NCBI GenBank assembly: GCA_038145175.1
Contig: JAYQPE010000006.1
Span: forward strand, 2,346-66,345
Length of the DNA stretch: 64,000 nucleotides
Direction: 5' to 3'
Origin: Actinomycetes bacterium
Lineage (GTDB): Bacteria; Actinomycetota; Actinomycetes; S36-B12; UBA5976
Shown here piece by piece: positions 29,480-37,582 of this stretch; positions within the stretch are counted from its first letter, which is position 1; every line of letters begins with the position of its first letter. The position numbers were made by a program, and so were the translations under genes. A model generated the notes under the pieces. The model searched no databases. It saw only the letters and a program-made list of their open reading frames with translations, and was not told where the DNA came from.

Positions 29480-30618
29480 GTAAAGATTTAAGAAATCTAA
29501 TTTCTACATCCAAAAGAATAGTTGTTAAAGTTGGCTCTTCTTCGATTACTACAGCTCAAGGTGGAATTGATGAGCAAAAAATAACTCAAATCGTAGAAGC
29601 AATAGCAAAGCATCATAAAAAACAGCATGAAATTGTTCTAGTTTCATCAGGTGCTATAGCTGCTGGTCTTGCGCCATTGAAACTTGATTCACGTCCTAAA
29701 GATTTATCTCTACAACAAGCCGTTGCAAGTGTGGGACAAAGTTTATTAGTGAATAAATATTCCCAAGAATTTTCAAAATACGATATAAATGTTGGTCAAG
29801 TCTTGTTAACTGCAGAAGATATGAGCAGGCGTTCGCATTATCGAAATGCTCAAAGGACTTTTAGTAAGTTACTAGAAATGAAAGTTATCCCAATCGTTAA
29901 TGAAAATGACACGGTGGCTACTGATGAAATTAGGGTTGGAGATAACGACAGATTAGCTGGAATTGTTACTCACTTAATTAATGCCGATGCATTAATTCTT
30001 CTTTCAGACGTTGATGGACTCTATTCAGCACCTCCAGGAAATATTAATTCTAAATTTATTTCTGAAGTTAAAGATTTCACGGAAATAGATACTTTAGAAA
30101 TTGGTGGAGCAGGCACAAGTGGTGTTGGAACTGGGGGCATGTTTACAAAAGTTCAGGCTGCTCGAATTGCAAGTGCTGGAGGTGTAACAGTTTTAATTAC
30201 TGATGCGAAAAATCTTGAATTAGTACTAAATGGAAAAGAAGTTGGCACTATATTTTGGCCAAAGAAAGCCAAATTATCCGCAAGATCACTTTGGATTTCT
30301 CATGCTGCAGATATTGAAGGCCAAATAAAAGTGGATCAAGGTGCAGTAAATGCACTTTTAACCAAGCAAGCTTCTTTATTAAGTGCAGGAATTAAAGAAG
30401 TCTTTGGAGATTTTGAAGATGGTGCAGTAGTTGAGGTAATAGATGAAAATCATAAAGTAATTGCAAAAGGGCTTACTAATTTTGATTCGTCAGAACTACC
30501 AAAAATGATGGGAAAAAATTCTGCCAAACTTTTTGAGGAATTTGGCTCAGGTTATGAAAAAGAAGTCATTCATCGTGACGATTTAGTTTTAAGTGCCGAT
30601 ATAGTTGTGGATAACTAA
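29476..30618 (+). CDS. proB: Glutamate 5-kinase
   Basis: VVKVGSS, NEND, GDND, GTGGM.TK, PUA domain. Confidence 0.95.
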
Positions 30619-30628
30619 AGAGATAAAA

Positions 30629-31924
30629 ATGACAAATGTAAACCTAAATCCAGTCGAAACTTTAGCAAGAAGTGCTAAAGAGGCAAGTTATAAATTATCG
30701 CAACTAAACAGAGAAGTTAAAGATAAAGCACTTAATTTAATGGCTAAGGATTTAGTAGAAAAATCAAGTGAAATTGTTAAAGCAAATGAATTAGATATTA
30801 AAAATGCTATTGAGAACAAAGTTGATAAATACCTGATTGATCGTTTAACCTTAAATGAAGCAAGAATCAAAGAGGTAGCCAAAGGCTTAATTGAAATATC
30901 GCAATTAAAAGACCCTGTTGGTGAAGTTGTTAGAGGTTGGGTTCAACCAAATGGATTAGAAATTGAACAAATACGCGTACCTCTAGGTGTGGTTGGAATT
31001 ATTTATGAAGCACGACCAAATGTAACAGTAGATGCGGTAGGAATTTGTCTAAAAAGTGGAAACTCAGTTTTATTAAGAGGTTCATCTTCAGCTCAAAATA
31101 CCAATGCTGCCTTAATTAAAGTTATGCGTGAAAGTTTAAATAAATTAAATATTCCATCTGATGCGATTATTCAAATTCCTACTGATTCTCATGAATCAGT
31201 CAAACAATTAATGAACGCTCGAGGTTTAGTCGATGTTTTGATTCCAAGAGGAGGCGCTTCTCTAATTGAATCTATCGTCAATGACTCTAAAGTACCCGTA
31301 ATTGAAACTGGAGTAGGTAATTGTCATGTCTATATAGATGAATACGCAGATATTGATATGGCAGTTTCAATACTTGTTAACTCAAAAGTTTCTCGTTGTA
31401 GCGTTTGCAATGCCGCCGAAACATTTTTAGTTCATGAAAAAATTGCAGACGAATTTTTACCAAAAGCTTTGAATGAACTAAAAAATCATGAAGTTACCAT
31501 TCATGGAGACCAAAAAATAAAGAAGTATTGTGAAAAAGTTGGAATTAAATATTTAGAAGTAACAGATCATGATTGGACTTGCGAATATTACAGTTTAGAT
31601 ATTGCTGCCGGAATTGTGGGTTCACTTGATGAAGCAATTTCTCACATTAGAAAATGGTCTTCCAATCACACTGAGGCGATAGTTTCTGATTCGGTTCAAA
31701 ATGTTGAAAAATTTGTTAAAGAAGTTGACTCTGCAGCAGTAATGATTAACGCTTCAACCCGTTTTACAGATGGTGGAGAATTTGGATTTGGTGCAGAGAT
31801 GGGTATTTCTAATCAAAAACTCCACGCCAGGGGACCTATGGGATTACTAGAAATGACAAGTACTAAGTATGTTGTTAAAGGTAAAGGTCACATCAGAGGA
31901 AATGTTGGAGAAATTAAAAAATGA
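30629..31924 (+). CDS. proA: Gamma-glutamyl phosphate reductase
   Basis: VPLGVVGIIYEARPNV, VCNAAE, NASTRFTDG, KLHARGP; ATG at 30629 preferred. Confidence 0.95.
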   Translation: MTNVNLNPVETLARSAKEASYKLSQLNREVKDKALNLMAKDLVEKSSEIVKANELDIKNAIENKVDKYLIDRLTLNEARIKEVAKGLIEISQLKDPVGEVVRGWVQPNGLEIEQIRVPLGVVGIIYEARPNVTVDAVGICLKSGNSVLLRGSSSAQNTNAALIKVMRESLNKLNIPSDAIIQIPTDSHESVKQLMNARGLVDVLIPRGGASLIESIVNDSKVPVIETGVGNCHVYIDEYADIDMAVSILVNSKVSRCSVCNAAETFLVHEKIADEFLPKALNELKNHEVTIHGDQKIKKYCEKVGIKYLEVTDHDWTCEYYSLDIAAGIVGSLDEAISHIRKWSSNHTEAIVSDSVQNVEKFVKEVDSAAVMINASTRFTDGGEFGFGAEMGISNQKLHARGPMGLLEMTSTKYVVKGKGHIRGNVGEIKK

Positions 31925-32052
31925 TCAAATTGAGCGAAGTTGCCGAAAAGGGTGTAGAACTTCCATTTCATCCATTGGTGTTTGGATTTGGAATGTTTGG
32001 ATTATTAGTTGTGGCTTTAATTGTGGTCACAAGGTTAAACGCAGACAGATAA
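31921..32052 (+). CDS. Small single-pass membrane protein (43 aa), absent from the ORF track
   Basis: MIKLSEVAEKGVELPFHPLVFGFGMFGLLVVALIVVTRLNADR; GGAG RBS; ATGA overlap with the proA stop; ends 1 nt before nadD. Confidence 0.8.
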   Translation: MIKLSEVAEKGVELPFHPLVFGFGMFGLLVVALIVVTRLNADR

Positions 32053-32053
32053 A

Positions 32054-32617
32054 GTGAAATCCCGTATAGGGCTATTGGGTGGAACATTTAACCCAATTCA
32101 TTTTGGACATTTAGAAATTGCCAAAGCGGCTTTAAATTTATTGAATCTAGATAAGTTAATTTTTATACCTGCTGGTAATCCTTGGCAAAAAGGTGATTTT
32201 ATTTCTTTTGAGCATAGATTTAAAATGTTAAAACTTGCAATAAAAAATCTAGAGAATGTTGAAATTTCTGAAATTGAAAAAGATGAGATTAACCCCTCCT
32301 ACACTTATCAAACTTTAGAAGAATTACATTCTATTTATCCTGATTCTGAATTCGTTTTTTTAATTGGAAGTGATGGAATAAAAAATTTTGGTACTTGGAA
32401 AAAACCAGAATCGATTAAAACTTTAGCCAGAATCTATGTAGTTCCAAGACAAAATGATCCTATAGTTGACTGGCATTTTGATCGTTTGCAATTTAGTCCC
32501 ATTTCCATTTCTTCATCACAAATAAGAGAAAAAATAAAGAACCAAGAATCAATTGAAGAATTTGTTCCTGCAGAAGTAATCCAATACATCAAAGCCAACC
32601 AACTCTATAAATCTTGA
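32054..32617 (+). CDS. nadD: Nicotinate-nucleotide adenylyltransferase
   Basis: GGTFNPIHFGH, P.G.PWQK, ISSSQIR. Confidence 0.93.
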   Translation: MKSRIGLLGGTFNPIHFGHLEIAKAALNLLNLDKLIFIPAGNPWQKGDFISFEHRFKMLKLAIKNLENVEISEIEKDEINPSYTYQTLEELHSIYPDSEFVFLIGSDGIKNFGTWKKPESIKTLARIYVVPRQNDPIVDWHFDRLQFSPISISSSQIREKIKNQESIEEFVPAEVIQYIKANQLYKS

Positions 32618-32661
32618 GTGTGACATAATTATTACTAATGATAGAAAGTTTCGTTAATTAA

Positions 32662-33018
32662 GTGACAGCGTCTTTAAAGTCAAAAGAATTAGCCGCAATC
32701 GCAGCAAAAGCAGCCTTTGAAAAGCTAGCAACTGATGTAAAAATGATAGATGTAAGTTCAAGGTTTCCACTTTCAGATATTTTTTTGATCGCCTCAGTCA
32801 ACAATGTTAAACAAGCCCAAGCTGTTTCAGATGCAATCGAAGAGGAGTTAAATAAAATTGGTGTTAAAGCTATCAATCGAGAAGGAAATTCTGAAAGTCA
32901 TTGGCTTTTGATTGATTTTTCTGAAATTTTAGTTCACATTCAATTAGAAGAAGATCGAGATTATTACGGTTTAGAAAGATTATGGAAAGACTGTCCAATC
33001 GAGGAATTACATGGGTAA
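32662..33018 (+). CDS. rsfS: Ribosome silencing factor
   Basis: REG....W.LIDF..I.VH; YYGLERLW.DCP. Confidence 0.92.
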   Translation: MTASLKSKELAAIAAKAAFEKLATDVKMIDVSSRFPLSDIFLIASVNNVKQAQAVSDAIEEELNKIGVKAINREGNSESHWLLIDFSEILVHIQLEEDRDYYGLERLWKDCPIEELHG

Positions 33019-33658
33019 AAGACAATTAGTTTTGTGGCGACATGGACGAACAAGTTGGAATTTAGAACAAAGATTTCAAGGTCAAACTGACATTCCATTA
33101 GATGAAGTCGGAATTTCTCAAGCAAAAAATGCTGCATCACTTTTGAAGCATTTGAAACCCAGTTACATAGTTTCGTCAGATCTTTCTCGAGCAAATCAAA
33201 CAGGTTCGATTTTGGCAGATTTGTTAAATTTACAAATTACAAAAGATAAAAGATTTAGAGAAACTGCTCATGGCGAATGGGAAGGTTTGACCTATCCAGA
33301 ACTAAAACAAAAATTTGGTGATGAATATTTACGCTGGTCAAATGGAGAAGAAATAAAACCAGGTAATAACGGGGAAACTAGAAGTGAAGTGGCCCAAAGA
33401 ATGGTAGAAGGAATTTATGATCATATGAAACTTGTGCCAGATGGAAATGTTTTTGTGGTGGCAACCCATGGAGGTGCTGCCAGAGTTGCCGCAGGAAAAT
33501 TAATGGGCTTACCACCAAAAACTTGGAGCTCACTTGGCATCATTAGTAATTGTTCGTGGATTGTTTTAGACGAACCATTAAATCCAGAACTTCCTTGGAG
33601 GTTGGTTGAATATAACGCTGGATCTTTACCAACTCCAGCCCTTAGTGACGACAGATAA
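33011..33658 (+). CDS. Histidine phosphatase family protein
   Basis: RHG.T.WN..RFQGQ.D, SSDL.RA, ATHGG. Confidence 0.88.
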   Translation: MGKRQLVLWRHGRTSWNLEQRFQGQTDIPLDEVGISQAKNAASLLKHLKPSYIVSSDLSRANQTGSILADLLNLQITKDKRFRETAHGEWEGLTYPELKQKFGDEYLRWSNGEEIKPGNNGETRSEVAQRMVEGIYDHMKLVPDGNVFVVATHGGAARVAAGKLMGLPPKTWSSLGIISNCSWIVLDEPLNPELPWRLVEYNAGSLPTPALSDDR

Positions 33659-33704
33659 AATTTAGTGGAATAAGTTTTCGATAGAGTTACATTTCAATTA
33701 TTTT

Positions 33705-33777
<73 letters not shown>

Positions 33778-33787
33778 CAAATTTTTG

Positions 33788-33796
33788 TGTTACATT
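33788..33796 (+). promoter_or_regulatory. Extended -10 promoter element for the riboswitch-pnuC unit
   Basis: TG-T-TACATT, 12 nt before the aptamer P1. Confidence 0.5.
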
Positions 33797-33807
33797 TTAT
33801 TTAAGAA

Positions 33808-33907
33808 ATTGCACGGGAGTTCGAACTTCATCGGACTGAGAAAGTGACAAAACTTGTGTCACTGACCGTTTAGACCGTTTGGGTAATGCCAGATCGGGAG
33901 GAGTGAT
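33808..33907 (+). ncRNA. TPP-class riboswitch, variant lacking the J4/5 pyrophosphate pocket
   Basis: P2 ACGG/CCGT, P3, CTGAGA, P3a AGTGACA/TGTCACT, P4 CCG/CGG, P5 TTTGG-GTAATG-CCAGA; SD GGAGGAG lies inside the aptamer 3' end. Confidence 0.88.
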
Positions 33908-33908
33908 C

Positions 33909-34481
33909 ATGATTGTTATATTTACCGCTTGGAATTATCAAGTAACACTTTTGGAAATTTTTGCCGTACTTGCATCCTTAATTGGTGTTTGGTTAGGTAC
34001 AACTGGAACTCGAATTACATGGCCTTGGTGGATTTTAAGTAGTTCTTTATATGGAATTCTATTTTTCAATTTTGAATTATATGCAAGTGCCATCTTGCAA
34101 TTTGTATTTATTGTTGCAGCAATTTGGGGTTGGTTTGGTTGGGGTAAAGATGGTGCAAAACCAAGCAAATTAATTATTAAAGAAAAATTAATTTGGTTTG
34201 CACTTTCTTTAACTTCTTGGCTAATACTTGCACCATTACTTGCTCAAATTGGAGCGGCTGCAACTTGGTTTGATTCCTTTATTTTAGTAGGAAGTGTAGT
34301 GGCACAAGTATTAATGGTGAGAGAAAAATATGAGGCATGGCCAATTTGGGTTGTTGTTAATGTGGTGGCAACATTTCATTATGCAAGACAAGAACTATGG
34401 TTTACCTCTCTTTTATATTTAGTATTTATTTTTATAGCTTTTGTTGGATGGAAAAAATGGTTAGAAAAAGTAAATATTTAA
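33909..34481 (+). CDS. PnuC-family vitamin transporter, probably thiamine-specific (PnuT-like)
   Basis: Trp-rich polytopic protein; DS, Q.LM and W..W...N motifs; downstream of the TPP-class riboswitch; ATG at 33909 follows GGAGGAG. Confidence 0.88.
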   Translation: MIVIFTAWNYQVTLLEIFAVLASLIGVWLGTTGTRITWPWWILSSSLYGILFFNFELYASAILQFVFIVAAIWGWFGWGKDGAKPSKLIIKEKLIWFALSLTSWLILAPLLAQIGAAATWFDSFILVGSVVAQVLMVREKYEAWPIWVVVNVVATFHYARQELWFTSLLYLVFIFIAFVGWKKWLEKVNI

Positions 34482-34482
34482 A

Positions 34483-35085
34483 ATGCAAATTCAACAATTA
34501 TCAAATCTAGTTGGATTTGTTAAAGCCTCTAAAAATTACTGTGGTGCAAATAAACTAATTTGTATTGATGGACCTGCAGGGTCTGGGAAAACAACTTTAG
34601 CAACAAATCTTCAAAAACTATTGGATAATTCTCACGTTATCCACATGGATGAAATTTATGAAGGATGGCAAAATGCATTGAATGAAAACTTAGTATTAAA
34701 TATAAATAATTGGATTATCTTTCCTATGAAAAATAATGAGCCTATTATCTACAATAAATTTGACTGGCATCTTAATTTGAGAAATGATTTAGTTATTATC
34801 AATGATTATAAATTTATAATTTTAGAAGGAGTAGGTTCAGCAAGTCTAGGGATTAGAGATAGATCTGCGTTAAATATCTGGATTGAGGGGCGCCAAGAAA
34901 TTCTATTAAAGCGAGTTTTGGATAGAGATGGAGATCAAATAAAAGAAGAAATGCAGCTTTGGCAAATAAAGGAACAAGAATATTTTTTAAAACACGACAC
35001 AAAAAAACATTGTAATATTTGGATAGATGGCAATTTTGAGCAAGAAATAGATACCGCATCACAAATCGTTTTGCTCAATCGGTAA
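34483..35085 (+). CDS. P-loop nucleoside/uridine-kinase-like protein
   Basis: [11 protein letters not shown] Walker A, HMD..Y.GW, ILEGVG, R...RDG lid; 1 nt after the transporter gene. Confidence 0.8.
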
Positions 35086-35095
35086 ATTTTACCTT

Positions 35096-37582
35096 GTGAA
35101 TTCTCAACCAGATAATAATGAGCAAAATGTTGCATTAGATTTTGATGCAATACAAGCTAAATGGCTTCCAATCTGGGAAAAAGAACAACCATTTAATTCA
35201 TCTGACGATCCAAACGATAATCGACAAAGAATCTATGTTTTGGATATGTTTTCTTACCCATCAGGTGATTTACACATGGGACACGCAGAAGCTTTTGCAA
35301 TTGGCGATGTAGTCGCAAGATATTACTTTCAAAAAGGATTTAATGTTTTTCATCCAGTAGGTTGGGATTCTTTCGGATTACCTGCAGAAAATGCAGCAAT
35401 AAAAAGAGGCGAAAATCCAGCCAACTGGACCTATAACAATATTGAAACTCAAGCGGAGTCATTTAAACGCTATGCAATTTCTTTTGATTGGAATCACAGA
35501 TTACATACTTCAGATCCTGAATATTATAAATGGACTCAATGGTTATTTATACAATTTTTCAAAAAAGGTTTAGCCTATAGAAAAGCTTCTAATGTTAATT
35601 GGTGTCCATCTTGTCAAACAGTTTTAGCAAATGAGCAAGTTGTAGCAGGAGAATGCGAAAGATGTAACTCAGTAGTAACAAAAAGAGAACTAACTCAATG
35701 GTATTTCAAAATTACAGAATATGCTCAAAGACTTTTAGATGACATGTCGCAAATAGAAAATACTTGGCCAGAACGAGTTTTGACAATGCAAAAGAATTGG
35801 ATTGGTAAATCTGAAGGTGCTTATGTTGATTTTGAAATTGATGAATTAAATAAAAAAGTTACTGTCTTTACCACAAGACCAGATACTTTGTTTGGCGCTA
35901 CATTTTTTGTTGTAGCAGCTGATTCAAAACTTGCTCAAGAACTCGTTGCAGAAGATAAAAATACAGAATTAAATAAATATATTGAAGAAGTAAAAAAAGC
36001 AACTGATATTGAAAGACTTTCAACAGATAGACCAAAAACAGGTATATTTCTTGGACGTTATGCAATAAATCCAGTCAATAATGAAAAATTGCCTATTTGG
36101 GCATCAGATTATGTTTTGGCAGATTATGGAACAGGTGCATTAATGGCTGTTCCTGCACACGATCAGCGCGATTTAGATTTTGCAAAAACTTTTAAATTGC
36201 CAGTCAGAGTTGTTGTTGAAACTGGAGAAGAAGATCCAAGTAAATCTTTTATTGCTACAGCAGGTGATGGAAAATTAGTAAATTCAGATTTCTTAAATGG
36301 TTTAGATAAACAAAAAGCCATTAAAGCAATGATTGAGTACTTAGAAAAAAATAATTTTGGTAAAGGTGCGACAAACTTTAGATTAAGAGATTGGTTAATT
36401 TCTAGACAAAGATATTGGGGAGCACCAATTCCAATTATTCACTGCCCAAAATGTGGGGAAGTTGCAGTCTTGGATGAACAATTGCCTGTGAAATTACCTG
36501 AACTTGCTGGAGAACAATTAGCACCAAAAGGAACTTCACCTTTAGCTGCTGCAACAGATTGGGTTAATACAAAATGCCCAAAGTGTAATTCCGATGCAAA
36601 AAGAGATACAGACACAATGGATACTTTTGTGGATTCTTCCTGGTATTACTTGAGATATCCATCAGCACACGATAAAGAAAAAGCAATAGATCCAAAATTG
36701 TTAAGACGTTGGTTACCGGTGGCACAGTATGTTGGAGGAGTTGAACATGCAATTTTGCATCTTCTTTACAGCAGATTTTTTACCAAAGTTTTATTTGACT
36801 TAGGTTATGTGGAATTTAATGAACCTTTCAAAGCACTTTTAAATCAAGGTCAAGTTATTTTAAATGGTTCTGCCATGTCAAAATCAAAAGGAAACATGGT
36901 TGATTTAGGCGAACAAATTTCTGAATTTGGAGTCGATGCTGTTCGATTAACTATGGTCTTTGCCGGCCCTCCAGAAGACGATATTGATTGGGCAGAAGTT
37001 TCCCCAGGAGGCTCTAAGAAATTTTTATCAAGAGCTTGGCGTCTATCAAAAGATGTTAAATCAGAAAAAGAAATTAATTTTAACGATGGAAATTTAGAAT
37101 TAAGACAAAATGTCCATCGAACAGTAGATGAAGTGACCACATTAATTGAGTCATTTAGGTTTAACGTGGCAATTGCTAGAACCATGGAATTAGTTAACGT
37201 AACTAGAAAAGCAATAGACACAGGATGTGGAGCAAGTGATCCCGCAGTTAGAGAAGCTGTTGAAACTATCGCAATAATTCTTTCTCTATTTGCCCCTTAC
37301 ACTGCAGAAGAAATGTGGCAAACCTTAGGACATAAAGACTTAATTATAAAGGCAGGCTGGCCACCTGTTGATCCAAAATTACTGGTCAGACAATCAGTTG
37401 TTTGTGTGGTCCAAGTATCTGGAAAATTGAGAGCTCGTCTTGATGTTTCACCTGATATCTCAAGTGATGAATTAGAAAAACTTGCTTTAAATGAACCAAA
37501 TGTAGTAAAAAATCTAGATGGAAGACAGGTTAAAACAGTTATTGTTAGGGCACCAAAGCTAGTAAATATAGTCCCTGAATAA
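35096..37582 (+). CDS. leuS: Leucine--tRNA ligase
   Basis: MFSYPSG.LHMGH, editing domain TTRPDT, AMSKS. Confidence 0.97.

What the first reader, a model, noticed from the sequence alone, without database searches (positions are those of the whole stretch)
33808..33907. TPP-like riboswitch with the pyrophosphate-binding pocket missing: candidate free-thiamine sensor
Seen: P1 ATTGC/GTGAT, P2 ACGG/CCGT, J2/3 GAG, P3 GTTCGA/TCGGAC, the invariant TGAGA, P3a and the L5 loop GTAATG are all intact. P4 (CCG 33875-77 / CGG 33895-97) stacks directly on P5 (TTTGG 33878-82 / CCAGA 33889-93) with only one bulged U (33894). Established: in canonical TPP aptamers (E. coli thiM: CCU-GA-UCUGG...CCAG-CG-UAGG) the J4/5 GA and J5/4 CG nucleotides coordinate Mg2+-pyrophosphate. 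Both are absent here. Inference: the ligand has shifted toward thiamine, TMP or a pyrimidine-containing precursor. The SD (GGAGGAG 33897-903) and the start-proximal P1 strand are part of the aptamer, so ligand binding would block translation directly without an expression platform. I recall junction-variant TPP aptamers linked to pnuC being reported, so novelty needs a literature check.
Basis: partly seen in the sequence, partly recalled or inferred. Interest (0 to 1): 0.9.

Follow-up and report, generated by a model that had tools for sequence, protein, structure and literature searches.

The report
TPP-type riboswitch lacking pyrophosphate pocket
This is a real, conserved variant of the vitamin-B1 (TPP) riboswitch that has lost the loop which normally reads the pyrophosphate, and it controls a thiamine importer and a neighbouring kinase in a vitamin-B1-dependent bacterium; such variants were briefly announced in 2017 but never described in detail.

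Summary
Window 33803-33916 (+) matches Rfam TPP (RF00059) at 42.2 bits, E 2.2e-7. That is below the gathering score of 54.3, and the shortfall comes from the model's J4/5 and half of J5/4 being deleted.

The deletion is not decay. In the host's family, 59 of 70 analysed TPP-like elements lack the junction. P2, P3, P3a and the fused P4-P5 helix are kept with covariation.

Aptamer type follows the gene it controls:
- 54 of 55 junction-less elements precede a PnuC-family gene, and 51 of 55 also precede a P-loop kinase.
- All 11 canonical or near-canonical elements precede ABC-binding-protein or NCS1 genes.

The genome has ThiL but no ThiE, ThiD or TPK. The operon is therefore best read as a thiamine facilitator (PnuT) plus a candidate thiamine kinase.

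The Shine-Dalgarno sequence is the 3' strand of P4, so control is translational.

The ligand shift cannot be tested here. McCown et al. 2017 state that P4-P5 variants bind thiamin about as well as TMP and TPP. Kang et al. 2017 reported a THI element upstream of pnuC (read as PnuT) in acI Actinobacteria.

Verdict: real, and a member of a known but undescribed variant kind. Moderate interest.

The parts
33803..33916 (+). Full extent of the match to the Rfam TPP model (RF00059). It scores below the gathering threshold.
   Evidence: 42.2 bits, E 2.2e-7, model positions 1-105; the only match in the genome; the family-specific model R1 gives 78.3 bits.
33813..33816 (+). P2 5' strand ACGG. It pairs with CCGT at 33866-33869.
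   Evidence: helix 2 is paired in 100% of cells across 55 sequences.
33866..33869 (+). P2 3' strand CCGT.
33819..33836 (+). P3 hairpin: GTTCGA 33819-24 pairs with TCGGAC 33831-36.
   Evidence: helix 3 is 93% paired, and 4 of its 6 pairs show changes on both sides.
33836..33841 (+). CUGAGA, the J3-2 pyrimidine-pocket motif. It is invariant.
   Evidence: these columns are invariant in 55 of 55 sequences. The motif is identical to the Rfam consensus.
33843..33863 (+). P3a hairpin: AGTGAC 33843-48 pairs with GTCACT 33858-63.
   Evidence: helix 4 is 96% paired, and all 6 pairs show changes on both sides.
33875..33897 (+). Fused P4-P5 arm. CCG/CGG stacks on TTTGG/CCAGA with a single 3' bulge (T33894, or C33895 in the alternative register). 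The loop is GTAATG at 33883-88. There are no unpaired nucleotides on the 5' side.
   Evidence: J4/5 is deleted and J5/4 is reduced to one nucleotide; helix 5 is 89% paired, and 5 of its 8 pairs show changes on both sides; the minimum-free-energy fold gives the same arm.
33897..33903 (+). Shine-Dalgarno GGAGGAG. It overlaps the 3' strand of P4 and the junction.
   Evidence: Read directly from the sequence; the start codon lies 11-19 nt (median 14) after P5 in 52 of 54 relatives.
33909..34481 (+). PnuC-family transporter gene (190 aa), read here as a PnuT-type thiamine facilitator.
   Evidence: PF04973 at 137.8 bits. TIGR01528 at 78.4 bits. PDB 4qtn (PnuC); the only Pnu gene in the genome; a homologue lies downstream of 54 of 55 junction-less aptamers.
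34483..35085 (+). P-loop kinase (200 aa) of the uridine-kinase/PRK type, a candidate thiamine kinase. It begins 2 nt after the pnuC stop codon.
   Evidence: matches to AAA_18, PRK and PRK06547; a weak P-loop match to human NRK1; a homologue is present in 51 of 55 loci, and the 4 loci without it end less than 460 nt downstream.

Best explanation
This is a translational OFF riboswitch of the TPP (THI-box) family. The internal loop between P4 and P5, which in canonical aptamers shapes the pyrophosphate pocket, has been deleted. What remains is one nearly continuous helix with a small, non-conserved 3' bulge.

The pyrimidine-binding half and the L5-P3 docking loop are intact, so the RNA should still clamp the aminopyrimidine end of thiamine compounds. 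It has lost the usual means of reading the diphosphate. It therefore most likely responds to the thiamine moiety whatever its phosphorylation state (thiamine, TMP and TPP as one pool).

The 3' strand of P4 and the following junction are the Shine-Dalgarno sequence. When the two arms are locked by ligand, the ribosome cannot load.

The regulated operon is a Pnu-type thiamine facilitator (PnuT) plus a P-loop kinase. I infer that the kinase traps imported thiamine as TMP and that ThiL then converts TMP to TPP.

Shown here: the anatomy, its conservation and covariation, the gene association, the pathway gaps and the Shine-Dalgarno overlap.

Inferred: the ligand specificity, the kinase's substrate and the transporter's substrate.
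For: Anatomy:
- The Rfam alignment deletes J4/5 and half of J5/4. P2, P3, CUGAGA, P3a, P5 and L5 all align.

Conservation:
- One search listed 79 TPP matches in the family. I analysed 70 and dropped the 9 with E >= 0.009.
- Of the 70, 59 lack the junction, 7 are fully canonical and 4 keep the 'CG'.
- On 55 junction-less sequences, 83% of cells pair, against 71.3 +/- 0.6% in shuffles (0 of 500 reach the observed value) and 27-43% when partners are slid.
- 20 of 29 pairs show changes on both sides. Within the fused arm, pairs switch G-C to C-G and U-A to C-G.

Gene association:
- 54 of 55 junction-less elements have a PnuC homologue downstream, and 51 of 55 also have the kinase.
- None of the 11 canonical elements has either. 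Those precede solute-binding-protein/ABC or NCS1 genes.
- The split is seen within single genera (g3, g7) and within one genome, G030: L005 is canonical with a binding-protein gene, and L032 is junction-less with pnuC.
- At order level, all 15 binding-protein-linked aptamers examined are fully canonical. The 7 PnuC-linked ones range from junction-less to 'CG' retained.

Pathway:
- The own genome has ThiL (245 bits).
- It has no TPK, and no ThiE or ThiD above cut-off.
- It has no ThiB-like or NCS1 homologue of its relatives' transporters, and only one Pnu gene.
- NadA is present.
- Across the family: ThiE in 0 of 80 genomes of g1, g2, g3 and g7; TPK in 0 of 93; ThiL in 92 of 93.

Shine-Dalgarno overlap:
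- The start codon lies 11-19 nt after P5 in 52 of 54 loci.

Literature:
- McCown 2017 reports that P4-P5 variants bind thiamin about as well as TMP and TPP (passages).
- Lang 2007 reports that the P4/P5 interface shapes the pyrophosphate pocket, J3-2 binds the pyrimidine, and L5 docks on P3 (passages).
- Kang 2017 reports a THI element upstream of pnuC, read as PnuT, in thiamine-auxotrophic acI strains (passages).
Against: - There are no binding or expression data for this RNA. I found no RNA run that holds it.
- McCown et al. do not say which variants they tested, and their study is cited only as 'in prep', so its bearing on this complete deletion is an assumption.
- A closing P1 helix, part of the canonical fold, is not detectable in this class.
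- A small 3' bulge remains at the old J5/4 position and could still help bind phosphate through metal ions.
- NCBIfam places the transporter with the nicotinamide riboside transporter PnuC, above its cut-off (78.4 bits against 42.45).
- The adjacent kinases resemble nicotinamide riboside kinases. The window's kinase gives a weak P-loop match to human NRK1. In family f4 the kinases carry AAA_28, which I recall is the NadR kinase-domain family.
- Not every PnuC-linked aptamer in the order has lost the 'CG' (L093, L115, L122, L123).
- The genomes are incomplete (own genome 94%), so absences are not proof.
Confidence: 0.6

Rival explanations
1. It is still a TPP-selective riboswitch. The diphosphate would be read in another way, for example through hydrated Mg2+ bridging to the backbone or to the residual 3' bulge. 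The deletion would then only retune affinity or kinetics for a transporter operon.
For: - A bulge of 1-6 nt always remains at the former J5/4 position.
- Near-canonical aptamers that keep 'CG' also precede pnuC in sister families (L093, L115, L122, L123). This suggests a continuum with a single function.
- TPP is the end product, and ThiL is present in 92 of 93 genomes.
Against: - The bulge varies across genera (C, A, U, UU, UGA, UGUGAA). Its sequence is not conserved, which does not fit a specific pocket.
- The 5' junction nucleotides are entirely absent.
- The loss follows gene type within single genera, which argues for a functional difference.
- McCown 2017 reports loss of discrimination for core variants.
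Confidence: 0.25
2. The operon is a true nicotinamide riboside salvage unit (PnuC plus an NR kinase). The TPP-derived aptamer would then have been re-targeted to an NAD-related ligand such as NR or NMN.
For: - The transporter passes NCBIfam's PnuC equivalog cut-off.
- Its best solved relative is PnuC, PDB 4qtn.
- The kinase's best PDB match is human NRK1, at E 0.0017 over the P-loop only.
- In family f4, the kinases after pnuC carry AAA_28.
Against: - The pyrimidine pocket (CUGAGA) and the P2/P3 core are invariant and identical to the TPP consensus.
- The genome has NadA, so NR salvage is not required.
- The genome has no other route to TPP: no ThiE, ThiD or TPK, and no other thiamine transporter homologue, yet ThiL is kept.
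- No Rfam NAD+ riboswitch or pnuC-motif match appears here even at E <= 10.
- Panchapakesan et al. 2021 state that PnuT genes associate with TPP riboswitches (passages).
Confidence: 0.04
3. It is a decayed or ligand-independent relic. It folds and merely sets a constitutive low translation rate.
For: - The score is below Rfam's gathering threshold.
- There is no detectable P1.
- The single-sequence fold is not unusually stable (z -0.81).
Against: - 26 columns are invariant across 55 sequences from several genera.
- Compensatory changes occur in four helices.
- The variant-specific model finds a match in 143 of 151 genomes of the order, though it also scores canonical TPP aptamers.
- The link to one operon type is strict.
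Confidence: 0.04

Closest known systems
Canonical TPP riboswitch (THI element, Rfam RF00059; E. coli thiM and thiB types)
   Same: - The same three-way architecture: P2, P3, the CUGAGA pyrimidine pocket, P3a, P5 and the GUAAUG-type L5 loop.
- Linked to a thiamine-related gene.
- Translational control with the Shine-Dalgarno sequence in the 3' part of the aptamer.
   Different: - The J4/5 and J5/4 loop that forms the pyrophosphate pocket is deleted.
- P4 is reduced to 2-3 bp.
- There is no conserved P1.
- The score is below Rfam's gathering threshold (42.2 against 54.3), so standard annotation misses it.
TPP riboswitch variants with mutated pyrophosphate-binding core (Roth, McCown, Zhang, Lee, Breaker, 'in prep.', announced in McCown et al. 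2017, RNA 23:995)
   Same: - Altered P4-P5 region.
- Found in many bacteria.
- Sometimes present in the same genome as a canonical aptamer. Here that is G030, the only genome where I saw both.
- Proposed to have lost discrimination between thiamin, TMP and TPP (passages).
   Different: - Only two short passages are in print. No sequences, consensus or gene associations were visible to me, and supplements are closed.
- Membership of this complete-deletion, pnuC-linked form is therefore likely but unverified.
- I found no follow-up paper.
THI element upstream of pnuC (read as PnuT) in acI freshwater Actinobacteria (Kang et al. 2017, Sci Rep 7:42252)
   Same: - Streamlined, thiamine-auxotrophic Actinobacteria.
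- A gene annotated pnuC is preceded by a TPP-type element and reinterpreted as the thiamine transporter PnuT (passages).
   Different: - The passages I read mention neither the missing junction nor the adjacent kinase.
- I have not established that the window's organism belongs to that lineage.
HMP-PP riboswitch (thiS motif) and NAD+-II riboswitch (pnuC motif)
   Same: - The first senses a thiamine precursor.
- The second sits upstream of pnuC genes with the ribosome-binding site inside the aptamer.
   Different: - Both have unrelated architectures.
- Neither gives a match to this region, even at E <= 10.

Membership tests
TPP riboswitch, Rfam RF00059 | Score at or above the curated gathering threshold (54.3 bits) | tested here: not met
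   42.2 bits, E 2.2e-7. No hit at the gathering threshold.
TPP riboswitch, Rfam RF00059 | Pyrimidine-sensor helix: P2, P3, the J3-2 CUGAGA motif and P3a | tested here: met
   Aligned to the consensus. CUGAGA is invariant in 55 of 55 sequences. P2, P3 and P3a are 100%, 93% and 96% paired, with compensatory changes.
TPP riboswitch, Rfam RF00059 | P5 with the conserved L5 loop that docks on P3 | tested here: met
   GTAATG at 33883-88. The columns G.TAATGC are invariant or nearly so. The docking itself is inferred from Lang 2007.
TPP riboswitch, Rfam RF00059 | Internal loop between P4 and P5 (J4/5 and J5/4) that forms the pyrophosphate pocket | tested here: not met
   Both J4/5 columns and one of the two J5/4 columns are deleted in the model alignment. 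The same holds in 59 of 70 family elements.
TPP riboswitch, Rfam RF00059 | P1 helix closing the three-way junction | tested here: not met
   The Rfam register is 33% paired. The best 5'/3' helix is 4.56 bp, against 4.66 +/- 0.13 in the cross-genome control. A 5 bp pairing is possible in the window alone.
TPP riboswitch, Rfam RF00059 | Selective binding of TPP | not testable with these tools
   Needs in-line probing or ITC.
P4-P5 core variants of TPP aptamers (McCown et al. 2017) | [quoted passage not shown] | tested here: met
   The definition is taken from the passages.
P4-P5 core variants of TPP aptamers (McCown et al. 2017) | Affinity for thiamin similar to that for TMP and TPP | not testable with these tools
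   Stated in the paper for unspecified variants.
PnuT (Pnu-family thiamine facilitator) | Pnu-family fold | tested here: met
   PF04973 at 137.8 bits. PDB 4qtn at E 4.3e-7.
PnuT (Pnu-family thiamine facilitator) | Thiamine-type riboswitch upstream, in a host that needs imported thiamine | tested here: met
PnuT (Pnu-family thiamine facilitator) | Transports thiamine rather than nicotinamide riboside | not testable with these tools
   NCBIfam's PnuC (NR) equivalog is passed at 78.4 bits, so sequence alone does not settle the substrate.
NAD+-II (pnuC motif) and HMP-PP (thiS motif) riboswitches | Match to the family's covariance model | tested here: not met
   Neither is among the 8 matches listed for 33760-33960 at E <= 10.

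The most novel reading that the evidence does not exclude
The junction-less form may be a functionally separate riboswitch class that reads unphosphorylated thiamine (or the whole thiamine pool) rather than TPP. That would give cells two thiamine signals: canonical aptamers on ABC importers and junction-less aptamers on PnuT operons, as seen together in genome G030.

The kinases always encoded next to PnuT are uridine-kinase-like in this family and AAA_28 in a sister family. They may be previously unrecognised thiamine kinases. If so, they complete a PnuT, kinase, ThiL salvage route in streamlined aquatic Actinomycetota that lack ThiE and TPK.
Probability: 0.3. Interest if true: 0.65.

Novelty: new member of a known kind. 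Interest (0 to 1): 0.45.

Why it matters
- **Annotation gap.** Standard annotation does not see this element. 62 of the 69 family genomes with a TPP-like match have none above Rfam's gathering score. The operon is labelled 'NR transporter PnuC' and 'uridine kinase'. Vitamin-B1 uptake and its regulation in these small-genome, B1-dependent bacteria are therefore mis-annotated.
- **A natural experiment.** Within single genera the pyrophosphate loop is kept on ABC-importer leaders and lost on PnuT leaders. This shows how an aptamer's specificity determinant can be removed while the scaffold stays. It also offers defined sequences for testing the 2017 claim that such variants stop discriminating between thiamine, TMP and TPP.
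- **A missing enzyme.** The pathway gap (ThiL present; TPK, ThiE and ThiD absent) points to the adjacent kinase as a missing thiamine kinase. That prediction is directly testable.

Tried and rejected
**Approaches that gave nothing decisive**
- Rfam at the gathering threshold gave no TPP hit. The element appears only with the E-value threshold.
- Single-sequence folding is uninformative: z -0.81. It also offers an alternative pairing of the P3a 3' strand with AGUGAU at 33902-07 that is not conserved.
- The promoter and terminator scan found nothing between the upstream tRNA and the start codon. The transcription start is therefore unknown. The -10-like TAnnnT boxes that I saw 15-17 nt upstream of the aptamer in relatives (output) were judged by eye only.
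- I looked for P1 three ways: the Rfam register, RNAduplex per sequence, and the longest helix against a cross-genome control. None supports a conserved P1.
- For expression, no RNA holder was listed. Two runs of one study hold 5-6% of the sampled words. I did not lay reads, because contigs cannot show a transcript start.
- The kinase's substrate stays open. PDB, NCBIfam, the homologue search and the Atlas give only 'uridine kinase family', 'hypothetical' or a weak NRK1 match.
- Five canonical-aptamer genomes (G027, G031, G035, G038, G072; 70-88% complete) showed no second, junction-less element with model R1. I documented the two classes in one genome only for G030.
- I did not run structure prediction, fold search or complex prediction. 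None would decide the ligand.

**Readings considered and rejected**
- The decayed-relic, NR/NAD-sensor and HMP-sensor readings; see the rival explanations.
- An HMP signal is unlikely for the pnuC-linked form because its hosts lack ThiE.

**Literature**
- Searches found no full description of junction-less TPP aptamers.
- The library lacks most subscription journals, and supplements are closed. The supplemental files of McCown 2017 may show the variant consensus.

Full report
**What is in the sequence**

At the gathering threshold Rfam reports no TPP riboswitch in the window. With the E-value threshold, 33803-33916 (+) matches RF00059 over the whole model at 42.2 bits, E 2.2e-7. The curated cut-off is 54.3. 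It is the only such match in the 1.33 Mb, 94%-complete genome.

The model alignment shows where the score is lost. P2, P3, CUGAGA, P3a, P5 and the L5 loop align well. Both J4/5 columns are deleted, and one of the two J5/4 columns ('CG' in the consensus) is deleted. Lang et al. 2007 (PMC2018614, passages) state three things about the canonical fold:
- The interface of P4 and P5 shapes the pyrophosphate pocket.
- J3-2 binds the pyrimidine.
- L5 docks on P3.

The pyrimidine half and the docking loop are intact, and the pyrophosphate loop is missing.

**Is it more than chance or decay?**

I searched the 93 genomes of the host's family with RF00059.
- 69 genomes have a match, and only 7 have one above the cut-off.
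- I fetched 70 of the 79 listed matches, dropping the 9 with E >= 0.009, and oriented them.
- 7 are fully canonical (CCUGAUCUGG...CCAGCG.AGGGA).
- 4, from genus g4, keep the 'CG' but have a shortened J4/5.
- 59 lack the junction altogether.

On an alignment of the 55 junction-less sequences outside genus g6 (A1), 26 columns are invariant. Pair counts on the structure I named gave:

| Helix | Cells paired |
|---|---|
| P2 | 100% |
| P3 | 93% |
| P3a | 96% |
| Fused P4-P5 arm | 89% |

Overall, 83% of cells pair, against 71.3 +/- 0.6% in shuffles (0 of 500 reach the observed value). With slid partners, 27-43% pair. 20 of 29 pairs show changes on both sides. These include G-C to C-G and U-A to C-G swaps at the positions that replace the old internal loop. 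The structure was derived from these sequences, and the sequences are related, so the numbers lean in its favour. The compensatory changes in four helices are nonetheless plain.

What remains of the junction is a 3' bulge of 1-6 nt whose sequence differs between genera (C, A, U, UU, UGA, UGUGAA). There are no unpaired nucleotides on the 5' side.

**P1 and the expression platform**

- The Rfam register is paired in 33% of cells.
- The longest 5'/3' helix averages 4.56 bp, no more than when 5' and 3' segments of different genomes are combined (4.66 +/- 0.13).

The Shine-Dalgarno overlap is conserved. A purine-rich run (GGGAGG, GAGGAG, GGAAGG) begins 1-3 nt after P5 and includes the 3' strand of P4. 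The start codon follows 11-19 nt (median 14) after P5 in 52 of 54 loci. In the other two my ORF caller failed. No terminator lies between the aptamer and the start codon. Direct translational control without a separate platform is therefore supported.

**What it controls**

The first gene (33909-34481) is a Pnu-family transporter. It matches PF04973 at 137.8 bits and NCBIfam's PnuC equivalog at 78.4 bits, and its PDB relative is 4qtn. Two bases after its stop codon comes a 200-aa P-loop kinase of the uridine-kinase/PRK type. That kinase's only PDB match is a weak P-loop hit to human nicotinamide riboside kinase 1.

By tblastn:
- 54 of the 55 junction-less loci have the Pnu homologue downstream. 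The exception ends 1 nt after the aptamer.
- 51 have the kinase. The four exceptions end less than 460 nt downstream.
- None of the 11 canonical or near-canonical elements has either.

The canonical elements precede solute-binding-protein/ABC genes (PF13343, PF01547, then PF00528) or NCS1 permeases (PF02133).

The split cuts across phylogeny. In genera g3 and g7, both kinds occur in different species. Genome G030 has both: L005 is canonical with a binding-protein gene, and L032 is junction-less with pnuC. Five other canonical-aptamer genomes showed no second element.

The four g6 elements are also junction-less. The one I tested (L056) precedes an NCS1 permease.

**Wider range**

A covariance model of the junction-less class (R1) finds a match in 143 of 151 genomes sampled from the order. 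R1 also scores canonical TPP aptamers, so I read 50 loci directly.

In 40 loci from nine other families:
- All 15 binding-protein-linked aptamers are fully canonical.
- The 5 NCS1-linked ones keep 'CG' with a one-base J4/5.
- The 7 with a PnuC homologue as first ORF are junction-less (L106), reduced without 'CG' (L105, L107, L116), or near-canonical (L115, L122, L123).
- 13 were left unassigned.

Of the 10 loci read, three (L092, L095, L100) are from family f1, junction-less, and followed by the PnuC and kinase homologues. Six are from family f4 and one (L097) is from f5. Among the f4 loci, L078, L080, L084 and L089 are junction-less, L096 is reduced, and L093 keeps 'CG'. There the gene after pnuC carries AAA_28 (PF13521). 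I recall this as the family of the NadR ribosylnicotinamide-kinase domain.

Loss of the loop is thus a recurrent trend on pnuC leaders. It is complete in the window's family and partial elsewhere.

**Which vitamin?**

The transporter and the kinases resemble nicotinamide riboside proteins, so I tested that reading.

For the own genome:
- NadA is present (322 bits), so NR salvage is not needed.
- ThiL is present (245 bits).
- There is no TPK, and no ThiE or ThiD above cut-off.
- There is no homologue of its relatives' ThiB-like or NCS1 transporters.
- There is only one Pnu gene.

Across the family:
- TPK is absent from all 93 genomes.
- ThiL is present in 92 of 93.
- ThiE is confined to genera g4 (4 of 5) and g6 (4 of 5), the genera whose riboswitches precede NCS1 permeases. 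It is absent from all 80 genomes of g1, g2, g3 and g7.
- G044, the g4 genome without ThiE, carries the junction-less pnuC element (L058).

These hosts therefore need intact thiamine, a thiamine-to-TMP kinase and ThiL. The riboswitch-controlled Pnu gene and its kinase are the only candidates I found. The genomes are incomplete, so each single absence is weak. The pattern across 80 genomes is not.

Together with the invariant pyrimidine pocket, this makes thiamine far more likely than NR.

**What is already known**

- McCown et al. [quoted passage not shown] The work is cited as Roth et al., in preparation.
- I found no later account. Searches found none. Two later reviews from the same laboratory (passages) do not mention it in what I read.
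- Kang et al. 2017 (PMC5301498, passages) describe thiamine-auxotrophic acI Actinobacteria with a THI element upstream of 'pnuC', which they read as PnuT.
- Panchapakesan et al. 2021 (PMC7749635, passages) note that PnuT genes associate with TPP riboswitches.

So the kind of variant and the riboswitch-PnuT link are both in print. As far as my searches reach, four things are not in print:
- The complete deletion of the junction.
- Its strict tie to PnuT-kinase operons, against canonical aptamers on ABC importers within the same genera.
- The lack of a P1.
- The kinase prediction.

**Verdict**

The feature is real and conserved, and it is functionally tied to a thiamine-uptake operon.

The most likely mechanism is a translational OFF switch. 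The pyrimidine pocket still clamps thiamine compounds and the RNA no longer reads the diphosphate, so it senses thiamine, TMP and TPP as one pool. The anatomy and associations are shown. The specificity rests on inference and on two sentences about unspecified variants.

I rate it a new member of a known, though barely described, variant kind, with moderate interest.

Noticed in passing
window 34483-35085; L089:2229-2831, L078:197-1051(-), L093:1908-2768, L096:2180-2770: Two different P-loop kinase families sit directly after the riboswitch-controlled Pnu gene. In the window's family the kinase is uridine-kinase/PRK-like. In sister family f4 it carries AAA_28. The hosts have ThiL but no TPK and no ThiE. 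Both kinase families are therefore candidates for an unrecognised thiamine kinase. Public sources label them 'uridine kinase' or 'hypothetical'.
   Followed up: partly
L056, L060, L061, L062 (genus g6 of the family): Four junction-less aptamers carry a GUCAUG or GUUAUG L5 loop and a long purine-rich 3' tail. L056 precedes a 453-aa NCS1 permease (PF02133). Genomes of this genus have ThiE (4 of 5). This leader may answer to a different thiamine-related signal, such as a precursor. The genes downstream of the other three loci were not identified.
   Followed up: partly
family-wide and window 33803-33916: Only 7 of the 69 family genomes with a TPP-like match have one above Rfam's gathering score. 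Standard annotation would therefore report no TPP riboswitch in most of these genomes, the window's own included.
   Followed up: yes
window 33858-33863 and 33902-33907: The minimum-free-energy fold pairs the P3a 3' strand (GUCACU) with AGUGAU, just after the Shine-Dalgarno sequence. AGUGAU is a near-copy of the P3a 5' strand. This could be an alternative pairing, but it occurs only in the closest relatives and is not conserved across the class.
   Followed up: partly
upstream of the aptamers in L001-L070 (output); window about 33786-33800: TAnnnT boxes resembling a -10 element lie some 15-17 nt upstream of the CACGGGAG start in many relatives. In the window, TGTTACATT looks like an extended -10. 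That would leave only about 8-12 nt of leader before P2, which fits the absence of a real P1. This was judged by eye only. The consensus scan found no promoter there.
   Followed up: no
window 30605-37582: The gene order is proA-like, nadD-like (PF01467), an rsfS-like ORF, a histidine phosphatase (PF00300), a tRNA, the riboswitch operon, and then an 828-aa ORF that looks like leuS. The other names are my reading of the translations. The thiamine operon is inserted in an otherwise housekeeping stretch.
   Followed up: no
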